Shown here: positions 49,290-51,316 of the stretch, piece by piece
How positions within the stretch are numbered: position 1 is the stretch's first letter
How the letters are laid out: every line of letters starts with the position of its first letter
IMG/VR virus record: IMGVR_UViG_3300031758_000013
DNA from: an uncultured virus (IMG/VR IMGVR_UViG_3300031758_000013)
Taxonomy: Duplodnaviria > Heunggongvirae > Uroviricota > Caudoviricetes
DNA length: 64,000 nucleotides
Reading direction: 5' to 3' (one strand)
Notes under the pieces: generated by a model
Seen by the model: only the letters and a program-made list of their open reading frames with translations
Told to the model about the DNA's origin: nothing
Databases searched by the model: none
Position numbers and translations under genes: made by a program

Positions 49290-49868
49290 TTATCCTCGAT
49301 AAAAAATGTGAGCACCAATTTTAGCAGTGCGATCAAAAACTCTACCCCATGATGGACTTACATAGTCCGCATGATAGAACTTTGCACCTCTTGTTACGTC
49401 ACCGTAATTTCCTAGGTACACATTTTCAGCGATCTCTTTGGCTTTGCGATATGCAGCCAGATCCTGAATTCGCTTTCCTCCTTCACACTTCCATGAAAAC
49501 TGGCATACGCCTCTGGCCTTCTGATTGATGACCGCACATGGTGTTTTTGGGAAGCGTTTGTCTTTTACGCGGTTCAACACGACGTTGTTGACCGCAATCC
49601 TGCCCTTATAGGGTTCATGACCAGCTTCAAAATATGTATTCTCGGCCATGCATTGGATTTGTTGTTTATCGTAAGCGCTGAGATAAACAGGCTTCTTTAC
49701 GATCTTTTCTTTTTCTATTACTTGAATTTCCGGAACCTTAATCACCTTGACCTCTGGTTCTTTCTGTGGAGTTGCAAGAGCTACACTCGTAACTGCAATG
49801 GCTCCTAGGAAAAAACCTTCACCCCAACGCAGATAAGGAAAGTCCTTCCTGTTTTCGAAAAGTTTCAT
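49290..49868 (-). CDS. SleB-like cell wall hydrolase (Hydrolase_2) with N-terminal hydrophobic segment
   Basis: CMAENTYFEA..GRIAVNNVVLNRV..FPKTPCAVI..CQFSW..GAKFYHADYVSPSW..IGAHIFY. Confidence 0.9.
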   Translation of the reverse strand: MKLFENRKDFPYLRWGEGFFLGAIAVTSVALATPQKEPEVKVIKVPEIQVIEKEKIVKKPVYLSAYDKQQIQCMAENTYFEAGHEPYKGRIAVNNVVLNRVKDKRFPKTPCAVINQKARGVCQFSWKCEGGKRIQDLAAYRKAKEIAENVYLGNYGDVTRGAKFYHADYVSPSWGRVFDRTAKIGAHIFYRG

Positions 49869-49871
49869 TGT

Positions 49872-50112
49872 ATCCTCTAATCTTAAATGATCTTGGCAAA
49901 CAGAGACTGCTTTAAAGGCATCTCAGCCTAACAGTTTGTCCGTCGCTATGAGAAGATACAAAATGAAATAACGAAGGTATCTTCCATCCATTTCCCTCTT
50001 ACTGGAAATGCAAAATCATTATGGTTTCGTCAGTAGTATCTTAAAGATACTGCTCTCTAGCCCTAAGACTTGAAGCTTTGTAAGAGTCAATAGAGGTTGA
50101 ACCTCCGTTGCG
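49872..50112 (-). ncRNA. Highly structured leader / candidate ncRNA upstream of the SleB gene
   Basis: At least six stems, e.g. GAGGT/ACCTC, AGTATC/GATACT, CATTTCC/GGAAATG, GAAGATAC/GTATCTTC, GAGA-TGC/GCA-G-TCTC and long-range ATGATTTTG/CAAGATCAT. Confidence 0.5.
49923..49991 (-). CDS. Candidate 22-aa hydrophobic uORF MDGRYLRYFILYLLIATDKLLG
   Basis: SD AAGAGG just upstream; the ATG lies in the CATTTCC/GGAAATG stem. Confidence 0.4.
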   Translation of the reverse strand: MDGRYLRYFILYLLIATDKLLG

Positions 50113-50118
50113 ATATTT

Positions 50119-50126
50119 TATTTATA
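50119..50126 (-). promoter_or_regulatory. T4-type late promoter for the structured leader and SleB gene
   Basis: Exact TATAAATA. Confidence 0.7.
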
Positions 50127-50137
50127 CCATATATTAA

Positions 50138-50303
50138 GTTGCCGGATTCTGTTTCGAGGCTCCGGCGGGCCCAAGAGGTCATGCCGCTAGGCGGATACCT
50201 ACAACGCTATCGTTATCGTTAGCATTTGTGTTTAATGGCAACTTTGCCAAGCAATCAGTCTCGAACCGCCCTATTCCGTCCCAGTCGATCCTATCTCACC
50301 CCC
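50138..50303 (-). ncRNA. ssrA: Two-piece (permuted) tmRNA, coding piece; tag (A)ANDNDSVVGIRLAA
   Basis: 5' GGGGGTGAGATAGGATCGAC; tag ORF 50223..50179 ending LAA-TGA; 3' GCCGGA..AACAGAA..TCCGGC. The 3' end is approximate. Confidence 0.92.
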
Positions 50304-50716
50304 GTCATAAATGATCTTGTCTTTCGACCTTGACCTTTTGCCCAACCTTCAGGAGGAATCTGACCTTCTCTTAAACAACATTTCTGAGTTGGATCTTCTG
50401 GATTATGAAACCATCTTAATCCACCAGTTCCAGTTGGCTTAAACTCTCCGGGCTTTGGTCCACGCCTTGCAGTTTTGTTAGCGTTTCCTTTAGCCGCGCC
50501 TCGTTTGCCAGCCTCACTTAGCATTTCCTTAACAAGTTGTTCTTTACTTATTAAGCCAGAAAGTCCCAACCATGCTAGTCGATCTTCCCATCTGCCATGT
50601 TGTTCGTAGAGAATTCTATGAGCTTCTGCATGTTCTTCAACAGTTAACTCAATCAAATTCTCTGGGTCATCAGTTCCACCCAAATACTTAGGCACTTTAT
50701 GATGAATATGCTTCAC
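50291..50716 (-). CDS. HNH homing endonuclease inside the tmRNA intervening segment
   Basis: HIHHKVPKYLGGTDDPENLIELTVEEHAEAH (HNH); C-terminal W.HN..PEGW.KG motif; GTG start with AAGGAG SD. Confidence 0.85.
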   Translation of the reverse strand: MKHIHHKVPKYLGGTDDPENLIELTVEEHAEAHRILYEQHGRWEDRLAWLGLSGLISKEQLVKEMLSEAGKRGAAKGNANKTARRGPKPGEFKPTGTGGLRWFHNPEDPTQKCCLREGQIPPEGWAKGQGRKTRSFMTGVR

Positions 50717-50723
50717 TTAATCT

Positions 50724-50753
50724 CTCCTTCCTAGTTATTTATAAAACTAGGAT
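50724..50753 (-). promoter_or_regulatory. Late promoter TATAAATA (50743-50736) within a hairpin overlapping the HNH RBS
   Basis: TCCTAGTT-TTATAAAT-AACTAGGA, then AGGAGAGATTAA GTG. Confidence 0.75.
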
Positions 50754-50774
50754 CTTAAAGACTAAGATCACTTA

Positions 50775-50840
50775 TGGTGGAGGTGACGGGTACTGCCCCC
50801 GTGTCCTCAGAACCTTTATCGTTGATTGTCAACAACTGAT
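50775..50840 (-). ncRNA. ssrA: Two-piece tmRNA, acceptor piece
   Basis: GAC-ACGGG-GGCAGTA-CCCGT-CACCTCC-A-CCA. Pairs with GGGGGTG giving G3.U70; 5' ATCAGT is complementary to ACTGAT in the coding piece. The 5' end is approximate. Confidence 0.92.
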
Positions 50841-50846
50841 ATACTA

Positions 50847-50875
50847 TATATAATCTATTCTTGTTTAAATGTCAA
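50847..50875 (-). promoter_or_regulatory. Sigma70-type early promoter of tmRNA
   Basis: TTGACA-17-TATATA. Confidence 0.7.
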
Positions 50876-50878
50876 CAC

Positions 50879-51316
50879 TTAATTGCACCAAGATTGCTTT
50901 GCATCACCAAAATATTCTCTAGCATATCCGTTGGCAATTAACTGAGTTCGAAGACTCTTACCATCAAGAATCATGTCACCCAGCACTCGGCCACCATACT
51001 TATCCCAATCATATAGGATATATCTAACTTTCACCGCTTTGGCCACTAGATCCTTTGTAAAGGCGCTCGCTGCTTGACCCTTTTCATCTTCTGCGGGACA
51101 CTGCGCACGAAAACCTTTTTCTGGAGTATCTACACCATAGATACGAACTGAAATTTGCTTCTTAATTGGTGCTGGCACCCAGAGTGCTTCAATCTGTATA
51201 GTATCACCATCAGTTACTTTAATAACTTTGGCGTTATAAGCTTTACCAACCGGCGTCTTCTGTGCAAACACTGGAGTGGCCAGCGTCAGCGCTGCTAGAA
51301 CAATAAACTTCTTCAT
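50879..51316 (-). CDS. Secreted thermonuclease (SNase-like)
   Basis: Signal peptide; VTDGDTI..VRIYGVDTPE..DKYGGRVLG..LIANGYAREY. Confidence 0.85.
   Translation of the reverse strand: MKKFIVLAALTLATPVFAQKTPVGKAYNAKVIKVTDGDTIQIEALWVPAPIKKQISVRIYGVDTPEKGFRAQCPAEDEKGQAASAFTKDLVAKAVKVRYILYDWDKYGGRVLGDMILDGKSLRTQLIANGYAREYFGDAKQSWCN

What the first reader, a model, noticed from the sequence alone, without database searches (positions are those of the whole stretch)
50291..50308. HNH stop codon lies inside the tmRNA, so maturation would make its mRNA a tmRNA substrate
Seen: the ORF ends ATG ACG GGG GTG AGA TAG. G1 of the coding piece (50303) is the third base of ACG, and the TAG is nt 11-13 of the mature RNA. 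Inference: RNase P cleavage of the early precursor leaves a non-stop HNH message, so any protein made from it would be tagged and degraded by the tmRNA released from the same transcript. The late transcript starting near 50735 lacks the acceptor piece, cannot form the tRNA-like domain in cis, and should keep its stop codon. This would be a self-contained early-off/late-on switch for a toxic nuclease.
Basis: inference. Interest (0 to 1): 0.85.

Follow-up and report, generated by a model that had tools for sequence, protein, structure and literature searches.

The report
Homing nuclease gene inside phage tmRNA
A selfish-looking HNH nuclease gene sits in the cut-out spacer of a T4-like freshwater phage's two-piece tmRNA gene and its last codons run into the mature RNA, but relatives show that this overlap is incidental rather than a conserved switch.

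Summary
A 141-codon HNH gene (50716..50291, minus strand) lies in the 471-nt intervening sequence (IVS) of a circularly permuted tmRNA gene. It ends ATG ACG GGG GTG AGA TAG. G1 of the coding piece is 50303, and the TAG is nt 11-13 of the mature RNA.

The proposed non-stop/tmRNA-tagging switch is only partly supported. Among 18 distinct relatives with the same gene in a tmRNA IVS, 9 have the stop inside the mature RNA (+10 to +38). In the other 9 it lies in the IVS (-4 in 7, -15 in 2). These stops pre-exist in nuclease-free tmRNA genes.

Three things are conserved:
- a hairpin that buries the ribosome-binding site and carries a T4-type late promoter (TATAAATA) in its loop;
- an IVS-closing stem whose 3' arm encodes the last codons of the ORF;
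- presence/absence polymorphism at orthologous loci.

This is the known I-TevI/mobE style of control, placed in a new niche. Non-stop tagging of leaky early product would follow from the sequence in this phage, but it shows no sign of selection.

Earlier notes of this scan saw nuclease genes in phage tmRNA spacers on other DNA. My literature searches found no published description.

The parts
50847..50875 (-). sigma-70-like promoter of the tmRNA precursor: TTGACA (50875-50870), 17-nt spacer, TATATA (50852-50847)
   Evidence: Read. The simple scan did not call it, because its rule needs T at position 6 of the second hexamer. It is conserved in the orthologous loci L077 and L031. Its function is inferred.
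50775..50840 (-). tmRNA acceptor piece (T-arm, 3' acceptor strand CACCUCC, discriminator A, CCA at 50777-50775)
   Evidence: Rfam alignment. Identical to L077 over this stretch.
50304..50774 (-). intervening sequence (IVS), 471 nt, removed on maturation; holds the HNH gene
   Evidence: HEG-less relatives have an IVS of 5-155 nt, median 82.
50764..50774 (-). 5' arm of the IVS-closing stem (UAAGUGAUCUU)
   Evidence: Pairs with 50318-50308. Duplex of the IVS ends is -17.9 kcal/mol against a shuffle mean of -5.5. It is kept in the fold of the 543-nt precursor (z -6.5).
50716..50766 (-). two-tier hairpin; inner stem UCCUAGUU/AACUAGGA, outer stem CUUAGUCUUU/AGAGAUUAAG; sequesters the Shine-Dalgarno sequence and the first base of the start codon
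   Evidence: 72-nt fold -21.3 kcal/mol, z -5.0. Equivalent hairpins are found in 8 of 8 other relatives folded.
50736..50743 (-). T4-type late-promoter motif TATAAATA in the apical loop of the hairpin
   Evidence: Exact in 15 of 18 embedded relatives. The count in the window (7) equals chance (7.0), so the support comes from its position and conservation, not from the count.
50291..50716 (-). HNH homing-endonuclease-like ORF, 141 aa plus TAG
   Evidence: Pfam HNH 19.6 bits, below the 21.4 cut-off. PHROG 655 'homing endonuclease', E 1.8e-11. A profile of the family hits the HNH domain of a group II intron maturase, E 7.5e-4. Seven of 8 relatives tested pass the Pfam cut-off.
50308..50318 (-). 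3' arm of the IVS-closing stem (AAGAUCAUUUA), inside the last codons of the ORF
50291..50303 (-). overlap: the first 13 nt of the mature coding piece (G1 = 50303) carry the last base of ACG, then GGG GTG AGA TAG of the ORF
50137..50303 (-). tmRNA coding piece; tag frame 50223..50182 (ANDNDSVVGIRLAA), stop TGA 50181-50179
   Evidence: About 93% identical to L077 and L031.

Best explanation
A free-standing-type HNH homing endonuclease gene (HEG) has colonised the intervening sequence of a T4-like phage's permuted, two-piece tmRNA gene. That spacer is discarded when the precursor is cut into acceptor and coding pieces, so it works as an intron-like safe site.

The gene sits in the loop of the stem that closes the IVS. 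It brings its own late promoter, placed in the loop of a hairpin that buries its ribosome-binding site. In the early precursor, made from the sigma-70-like promoter, the hairpin forms and the gene is silent. Ribosomes therefore do not run through the closing stem and acceptor stem that the processing enzymes need. Late transcripts start inside the hairpin, have a free ribosome-binding site, lack the acceptor piece and are translated.

The ORF has no stop of its own. It reads out through the 3' arm of the closing stem until the first in-frame stop that the tmRNA sequence offers. In this phage that is the TAG at nt 11-13 of the mature RNA.

A consequence follows for this phage and for half of its relatives, but it shows no sign of selection: a spacer released by RNase P carries a stop-less ORF, so any leaky product would be a trans-translation substrate.

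Shown here: the anatomy, the conservation of the hairpin, promoter motif and closing stem, the variable stop position, and the presence/absence polymorphism. Inferred: the timing of transcription, RNase P cleavage at G1, nuclease activity and homing.
For: Identity of the parts:
- tmRNA.
- HNH.
- T4-like phage: one search gives matches annotated as baseplate wedge subunits, baseplate hub with tail lysozyme, head closure, DNA end protector, ssDNA-binding protein and DNA helicase loader.

Mobility:
- The orthologous loci L077 and L031 have the same flanks, an identical or 1-nt-different acceptor piece and a coding piece about 93% identical, but an unrelated IVS of 71 or 67 nt.
- Of the 109 loci in which both IVS ends could be placed, only 1 (L037, the same contig as L001) has the long IVS.
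- A DNA run holds a contig that joins 50307 to 50774, across the IVS.
- Homologous HNH genes stand free elsewhere: L004, Synechococcus phage S-SKS1 annotated 'homing endonuclease', and many loci. In two cases they sit just upstream of a tmRNA gene with a short IVS (L147; L221).

Regulation:
- The hairpin with TATAAATA in its loop and the Shine-Dalgarno sequence in its 3' arm appears in 9 of 9 loci folded, with different stem sequences.
- TATAAATA is exact in 15 of 18.
- The same design is described for I-TevI, I-TevII, I-TevIII, segB and Aeh1 mobE. There the ORF's 3' end enters structured RNA, and loss of the hairpin impairs td splicing (review PMC2988022, passages read).

Read-out:
- The closing stem has 8-17 bp in 17 of 18 loci, and its 3' arm lies within -24..-4 of G1.
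- The fold of the 543-nt precursor keeps the T-arm, acceptor stem, closing stem and ribosome-binding-site hairpin (z -6.5).
- Stop positions: +10, +11, +13, +13, +22, +25, +31, +34, +38; -4 in 7 loci; -15 in 2 loci.
- 97 of 108 HEG-less relatives already have TGAT before G1. L077 and L031 already read ATG ATG GGG GTG AAC TAG.
Against: - No transcript ends, cleavage sites or protein data exist. One search returned assembled contigs, which cannot show starts or ends.
- The window's HNH scores below Pfam's cut-off (19.6 against 21.4).
- TATAAATA is no more frequent in the window than chance (7 against 7.0). No T4-type late-transcription gene (gp55 or gp33 class) was looked for, and the genome is not held.
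- Endonuclease activity and the homing site are unknown.
- All 18 ORFs end within -15..+38 of G1, and 16 of 18 would lose their stop or keep it with only 1 nt behind it after cleavage. That could be read as selection for an ORF end at the cut site rather than as simple compaction.
- The closing stem is not supported in L222.
Confidence: 0.7

Rival explanations
1. The stop codon is placed inside the tmRNA as a selected switch. RNase P cutting of the early precursor makes a non-stop HNH message, and its product is tagged by the tmRNA released from the same transcript and then degraded. Late transcripts lack the acceptor piece, are not cut, and keep the stop.
For: - The sequence geometry is exact.
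- The late-promoter motif lies downstream of the acceptor piece and is conserved (15 of 18).
- Nine of 18 relatives also stop beyond G1, and 7 more stop 1 nt before it.
- Two unrelated ORFs in other IVSs also run across G1: a DUF6356 ORF in L025/L034/L105 and a 57-aa ORF in L012 and five others.
- A review states that the permuted precursor is 'probably' processed by RNase P and tRNase Z (PMC3985003, passages read).
Against: - The overlap is not conserved. Nine of 18 have a stop in the IVS. L126 and L128 keep 12 nt behind it.
- L216, the relative that shares the window's inner hairpin and short C-terminus, stops at -4.
- L002 and L210 share the same 3' closing-arm sequence and differ by TAG/CAG at the tmRNA site, which moves the stop from +10 to +22.
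- The stops used are pre-existing tmRNA or IVS sequence.
- The ribosome-binding-site hairpin lies wholly inside the IVS. It would silence both the precursor and the excised spacer, making the switch redundant.
Confidence: 0.13
2. The HNH protein is not selfish. It is a phage tool tied functionally to the tmRNA, for example a nuclease aimed at the host's or a rival phage's ssrA gene, and it is kept in the IVS for co-inheritance.
For: The family keeps turning up at tmRNA and tRNA genes. Eighteen distinct ORFs lie in an IVS. Two lie just upstream of a tmRNA gene (L147, L221). A weaker relative sits in a tRNA array (L149, 40% identity). The catalytic motif is intact in all aligned members.
Against: Only 1 of the 109 related phage tmRNA genes with placed ends carries it. 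Close orthologues do without it. This sporadic pattern, together with the free-standing homologues elsewhere, is the usual signature of a homing gene. Conserved RNA genes are typical homing targets. No test of target specificity was possible.
Confidence: 0.1
3. The ORF is a decaying relic, and its run into the tmRNA is the result of a lost stop codon with no expression at all.
For: The window's protein lacks the ...KNPGLNFHxKK segment that most relatives have. It scores lowest on Pfam HNH.
Against: - The reading frame is open over 141 codons, with the HH...N...H...H motif intact.
- L216 shares the short C-terminal form.
- A copy 99% identical is present on an independent contig (L001).
- The hairpin, late promoter and Shine-Dalgarno sequence are intact.
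- RNA-library contigs 100% identical cover parts of the ORF in three runs. This is weak evidence, because DNA carry-over is not excluded.
Confidence: 0.05

Closest known systems
[quoted passage not shown] Review by Edgell, Gibb and Belfort 2010, PMC2988022; passages read.
   Same: - The nuclease gene is nested in RNA that is removed from, or embedded in, an early transcript.
- A late promoter is placed so that only late transcripts escape a hairpin that sequesters the ribosome-binding site.
- The ORF's 3' end runs into structured RNA needed for maturation of the host gene.
   Different: The host RNA is not a self-splicing intron. It is the spacer of a circularly permuted tmRNA gene, removed by tRNA-processing enzymes. 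The two flanks are never rejoined. Cutting at the 3' flank would remove the stop codon in half of the lineages.
Homing endonuclease genes in group I introns of tmRNA genes (intron form, T-loop; LAGLIDADG genes in 36 of 883). PMC11915505; passages read.
   Same: A selfish nuclease gene rides inside a tmRNA gene without destroying it.
   Different: Here there is no intron. The gene is HNH rather than LAGLIDADG, and it sits between the acceptor and coding pieces. In the passages I read, that paper reports for permuted IVSs only a tRNA-Ala gene and a repetitive element. Its supplementary tables were not opened.
Permuted two-piece tmRNA genes of alphaproteobacteria and of aquatic phages (Rfam RF01849 and RF04321). 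Melnitz and pelagimyophages, PMC9004378; passages read.
   Same: Gene order is acceptor piece, then IVS, then coding piece. There is a G3.U pair and an ANDN...LAA tag. The host phage is T4-like.
   Different: The IVS is 471 nt, against a median of 82 nt in 108 HEG-less relatives. ARAGORN, used in that paper, finds nothing here.
Trans-translation of non-stop mRNA (tmRNA-SmpB tagging). Review PMC3985003; passages read.
   Same: An ORF that loses its stop by 3' truncation is the textbook substrate.
   Different: Here the truncation would be made by maturation of the tmRNA itself, and the substrate would be the tmRNA's own spacer. This is untested, and relatives do not conserve the arrangement.

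Membership tests
Circularly permuted (two-piece) tmRNA gene | The acceptor piece (T-arm, 3' acceptor strand, CCA) is encoded upstream of the coding piece, and the two form a tRNA-like domain. | tested here: met
   RF04321 scores 79.9 bits (gathering 47) and RF01849 62 bits (gathering 50), both full-length model matches. The 7-bp acceptor stem can be read.
Circularly permuted (two-piece) tmRNA gene | G3.U pair for alanine charging, and a tag reading frame that ends in hydrophobic residues plus a stop. | tested here: met
   GGGGGUG pairs with CACCUCC and gives G3.U. The tag is ANDNDSVVGIRLAA followed by TGA. The tag is close to that of L077 and L031, whose coding pieces align at about 93%. The role of G3.U in alanine identity is recalled knowledge.
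Circularly permuted (two-piece) tmRNA gene | The precursor is cut into two RNAs: RNase P at G1, and 3' processing after CCA. | not testable with these tools
   Only contigs were available. A review calls this processing 'probable' (PMC3985003).
HNH (beta-beta-alpha-metal) endonuclease | HNH motif recognised by curated profiles. | tested here: inconclusive
   The window's protein scores 19.6 bits on Pfam PF01844, below the 21.4 cut-off. Seven of 8 relatives tested pass. PHROG 655 matches at E 1.8e-11. A family profile hits the HNH domain of a group II intron maturase (E 7.5e-4) and Cas8f-HNH (E 1.4e-3). The HH...N...H...H columns are invariant in 5 of 5 aligned sequences.
Homing endonuclease gene | Sporadic presence or absence at an otherwise conserved, orthologous site. 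| tested here: met
   The window compared with L077 and L031. One of 109 related loci with placed ends carries it. A DNA contig joins across the IVS.
Homing endonuclease gene | The protein cleaves the gene-less allele near the insertion site, and the gene is over-inherited in crosses. | not testable with these tools
   This needs enzyme assays and phage crosses.
T4-type hairpin-regulated late homing endonuclease genes (I-TevI class of control) | A late promoter lies inside or next to a hairpin whose 3' arm sequesters the ribosome-binding site, so that only late transcripts are translatable. | tested here: met
   This test covers sequence and folding only. Nine of 9 loci fold this way, z -3.4 to -7.4. 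TATAAATA is exact in 15 of 18. Stem sequences differ between loci while pairing is kept.
T4-type hairpin-regulated late homing endonuclease genes (I-TevI class of control) | The phage uses T4-type late transcription (gp55/gp33/clamp) that recognises TATAAATA. | not tested
   The window has T4-like structural and replication genes, but no late-transcription gene was sought, and the genome is not held. All 7 TATAAATA sites in the window fall outside the ORFs of 110 aa or more listed; five lie 5-79 nt upstream of such an ORF, and the one at 50126 lies about 250 nt upstream.

The most novel reading that the evidence does not exclude
Maturation of the phage tmRNA acts as a fail-safe on its own passenger. 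RNase P cutting at G1 strips the stop codon from any HNH message still attached to the precursor, or in the -4 class leaves it only 1 nt from the 3' end. Nuclease made too early would then be tagged by the very tmRNA released from the same transcript and degraded. Late, acceptor-less transcripts escape the cut. On this reading, 16 of 18 family members end their ORF within 4 nt upstream of the cut site or beyond it because that placement is selected. The IVS would then be a general site where phage cargo genes (HNH, DUF6356 and others) are put under processing-coupled control.
Probability: 0.15. Interest if true: 0.8.

Novelty: new variant of a known kind. Interest (0 to 1): 0.55.

Why it matters
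It adds a third way for a selfish nuclease gene to live inside an essential RNA gene, beside introns and inteins: the discarded spacer of a permuted tmRNA. It also shows that the T4 recipe of a late promoter inside a hairpin that buries the ribosome-binding site has been carried into that niche.

It gives a natural test bed for how translation and RNA processing compete on one molecule. In half of the lineages cleavage removes the stop codon, and in the other half it does not, so the set amounts to a ready-made comparative experiment.

On the practical side, standard tmRNA finders miss such genes. ARAGORN found nothing here, so phage tmRNA counts are underestimates.

Tried and rejected
- ARAGORN on the window found 0 genes.
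- The window's own assembly is not held. The nearest record, G001, has neither the tmRNA nor the flanking DNA, so it says nothing about this locus.
- blastn against the phage collection found only the S-SKS1 HNH gene and an ssb gene. No named phage carries this locus.
- My guess that the 57-aa ORF in the L012 IVS is Bfd-like got no Pfam support, so I dropped it.
- A riboswitch in or near the tmRNA, as reported for Melnitz, was not found. There was no Rfam hit at gathering score in the window or in 20 relatives. An E-value scan of 49860-50140 gave only noise.
- The count of TATAAATA in the window is not above chance, so I do not use it as evidence.
- Read laying gave only assembled contigs, which show no starts, ends or strand. 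A 151-nt RNA-library contig that ends at 50302 is of read length, so its end carries no weight. Uncovered parts carry no weight either. The organism labels of the DNA runs (several say 'fungus metagenome') were not interpreted.
- Keiler 2000 (PMC16621) and Sharkady and Williams 2004 (PMC516066) are not held. What I say about them rests on citations in the reviews I read and on recall.
- Four literature searches found no paper that describes an HNH or homing gene in a permuted-tmRNA IVS: 'permuted tmRNA' + phage; 'two-piece tmRNA' + 'homing endonuclease'; tmRNA + 'intervening sequence' + HNH; pelagimyophage + tmRNA. The five hits were judged from titles and abstract starts only.

Full report
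**What is there**

On the minus strand Rfam finds a complete circularly permuted tmRNA gene. tmRNA_permuted RF04321 scores 79.9 bits against a gathering score of 47, over 50837..50179. alpha_tmRNA RF01849 scores 62 against 50, over 50879..50137. Both alignments carry one very long insertion between the CCA end of the acceptor piece and the GGGGGUG that opens the coding piece. ARAGORN reports nothing.

Reading the sequence gives these parts:
- The acceptor piece ends with CACCUCC-A-CCA at 50775.
- The intervening sequence (IVS) is 50774..50304, 471 nt.
- G1 of the coding piece is 50303. GGGGGUG pairs with CACCUCC and gives a G3.U pair.
- The tag frame is GCU AAC GAU AAC GAU AGC GUU GUA GGU AUC CGC CUA GCG GCA UGA. 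This reads ANDNDSVVGIRLAA, with the stop at 50181-50179.

The only sizeable ORF on that strand in the IVS is 50716..50291: a GTG start, 141 codons, ending ATG ACG GGG GTG AGA TAG.

**The ORF is a real HNH gene**

- The window's protein scores just under Pfam's cut-off (19.6 against 21.4 bits).
- It matches PHROG 655, 'homing endonuclease', at E 1.8e-11.
- Seven of 8 relatives tested pass the Pfam HNH cut-off.
- A profile of the family aligns its HHxxPxxxGGxDxxxNLxxL...H core to the HNH domain of a group II intron maturase (E 7.5e-4) and to Cas8f-HNH fusions.
- The closest named homologue is annotated 'homing endonuclease' in Synechococcus phage S-SKS1, where it stands free.

The window is from a T4-like myophage. 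One search gives matches annotated as baseplate wedge and hub, head closure, DNA end protector, ssDNA-binding protein and DNA helicase loader. Near-identical DNA is held by runs labelled freshwater and lake metagenomes, among others.

**Relatives without the nuclease**

Twenty of 20 checked are permuted tmRNAs by Rfam. Both IVS ends could be placed in 109 of the 120. The IVS runs from 5 to 155 nt (median 82) in 108 of them. Only L037 has the 471-nt form, and it is the same contig as the 99%-identical L001.

L077 and L031 are orthologous loci. They have the same upstream and downstream flanks, an acceptor piece that is identical or differs by one base, and a coding piece about 93% identical. 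Their IVSs are unrelated and measure 71 and 67 nt. In one freshwater DNA run a contig joins 50307 to 50774, that is, across the IVS. This presence/absence pattern at an otherwise conserved site is what a homing gene leaves behind.

**Relatives with the nuclease**

Protein-guided scans of viral and metagenome contigs gave 18 distinct HNH ORFs, counting the window, that lie between the two pieces of a permuted tmRNA. A spanning Rfam match passes a gathering score in 13 of them. In the other five (L129, L213, L215, L218, L222) the match is weaker or partial, but the acceptor piece, G1 and the tag frame can be read directly.

Their proteins are 46-83% identical among the nine compared. The tmRNA pieces around them differ widely, at 51-79% identity.

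The window's tmRNA pieces are far closer to the HEG-less L077 and L031 than to any HEG-bearing allele. This argues for gain or loss of the whole IVS cassette rather than long co-divergence.

Two more members of the family sit just upstream of a tmRNA gene with a short IVS (L147; L221). Many others stand free elsewhere.

It is not. I count the first base of the stop relative to G1 (+1).
- Nine ORFs end inside the mature RNA: +10, +11 (the window), +13, +13, +22, +25, +31, +34 and +38.
- Nine end in the IVS. Seven end at -4, the TGA of the motif TGAT that precedes G1. Two end at -15, inside the closing stem.

The class changes between close relatives:
- L128 (-15) and L130 (+31) are 80% identical.
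- L002 (+10) and L210 (+22) share the same 3' closing-arm sequence and differ by TAG/CAG at the tmRNA site.
- L216 shares the window's inner hairpin sequence and its short C-terminus, and stops at -4.

The stops are not brought by the nuclease gene. Ninety-seven of 108 HEG-less relatives already have TGAT before G1. L077 and L031 already read ATG ATG GGG GTG AAC TAG. The picture is an ORF without a stop of its own that reads out until the first stop the tmRNA sequence offers in whatever frame it happens to be.

**What is conserved**

First, a stem closes the IVS. The first bases after CCA pair with the last bases before G1. There are 8-17 pairs in 17 of 18 loci, each with a different sequence, and L222 is the exception. 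The 3' arm always lies within -24..-4, which places it in the last codons of the ORF. In the window the arms are UAAGUGAUCUU (50774-50764) and AAGAUCAUUUA (50318-50308).

Second, a hairpin stands just upstream of the start codon. Its apical loop holds TATAAATA, and its 3' arm covers the Shine-Dalgarno sequence up to the start codon. All 9 loci folded show it (z from -3.4 to -7.4, with stems of different sequence). TATAAATA is exact in 15 of 18.

Third, a fold of the 543-nt stretch from the T-arm to 34 nt past G1 keeps the T-arm, acceptor stem, closing stem and hairpin together (z -6.5).

**Comparison with what is known**

[quoted passage not shown] In those cases:
- early and middle transcripts form a hairpin that sequesters the ribosome-binding site;
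- a late promoter starts transcription within it, so late mRNA is translatable;
- removing the I-TevI hairpin reduces td splicing.
(review PMC2988022, passages read)

Homing genes in tmRNA have been reported only inside group I introns in the T-loop: LAGLIDADG genes in 36 of 883 intron-form sequences. For permuted IVSs, the passages I read report only a tRNA-Ala gene and a repetitive element (PMC11915505; supplements not opened). Four full-text searches found no description of a nuclease gene in a permuted-tmRNA IVS.

Three earlier notes of this scan describe nuclease genes in phage tmRNA spacers on other genomes. One of them also reports the closing stem with the gene's last codons in one strand. 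They agree with what I found here independently.

**How it most likely works**

The early precursor starts at the sigma-70-like promoter (TTGACA, 17 nt, TATATA, 50875-50847). It folds with the ribosome-binding site hidden, so ribosomes stay off the closing and acceptor stems. It is then cut into the two tmRNA pieces, probably by RNase P at G1 and by 3' processing after CCA (review PMC3985003).

Late in infection, transcription from TATAAATA (50743-50736) should start near 50730. That gives a short leader with a free Shine-Dalgarno sequence and no acceptor piece, and the nuclease is made. All of this is inference from sequence and from the T4 precedent.

The spacer released by a cut at 50303/50304 carries an ORF with no stop, so leaky translation would feed trans-translation. 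But the hairpin stays in the spacer, and half of the family does not share the arrangement. I therefore rate it as a by-product, or at most a lineage-specific fail-safe.

Expression data are weak. RNA-library contigs 100% identical to the window cover 50253-50457 (which spans G1), 50302-50452 and 50494-50658, in three runs from three studies. Contigs cannot show ends or strand, and DNA carry-over is not excluded.

**Verdict**

The underlying object is a homing-type HNH gene in the spacer of a permuted phage tmRNA gene, under I-TevI-like control. It is a new variant of a known kind and, as far as my searches reach, unpublished. Within this scan it has been noted before on other DNA.

Noticed in passing
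L025/L034/L105 (IVS of about 155 nt) and L012/L071/L073/L086/L100/L119 (IVS of about 133 nt): Other phage tmRNA spacers carry other small ORFs that also run across G1 into the coding piece. One is a 57-aa ORF matching Pfam DUF6356 (30.3 bits, cut-off 24.4; its stop is at +31). The other is a Cys-rich 57-aa ORF with no Pfam match (stop at +49). The spacer therefore looks like a general cargo site.
   Followed up: partly
The tRNA-like and tag regions are nearly constant. The spacer is hypervariable, from 5 to 155 nt, and each one is closed by its own stem. TGAT precedes G1 in 97 of 108.
   Followed up: partly
L147 133-627 and L221 1201-1653: Members of the same HNH family sit immediately upstream of a tmRNA gene that has a short spacer. 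In L147 the stop overlaps the start of the Rfam match. A weaker relative (L149, 40% identity over its tblastn match) lies inside an array of 12 tRNA genes.
   Followed up: partly
window 49960-50126 (minus strand): A second TATAAATA (50126-50119) lies just after the tmRNA. It is followed by an element of about 110 nt that is conserved in relatives (L005, L007, L020, L031, L077). It begins with a GGAGG...CCUCC hairpin and then AUUGACUCUUACAA. It folds well (z -4.3) and matches no Rfam family. Relatives' versions appear in RNA-library contigs.
   Followed up: partly
window 50137-50879: ARAGORN reports no tmRNA here, and Rfam scores drop by about 20 bits compared with HEG-less relatives. Surveys that rely on ARAGORN will miss tmRNA genes with long spacers.
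   Followed up: yes
window 50882-51316 and 49293-49868 (minus strand): The tmRNA is flanked by a secreted-looking staphylococcal-nuclease homologue (Pfam SNase, E 5e-11) upstream and a SleB-type cell-wall hydrolase (Hydrolase_2, E 1e-24) downstream.
   Followed up: no
L126 1146-1203: In some loci the 5' arm of the IVS-closing stem and the 5' arm of the ribosome-binding-site hairpin use the same bases (CUUUGAGCU in L126). The two helices are then mutually exclusive there. Closing the spacer could in principle open the ribosome-binding site.
   Followed up: no
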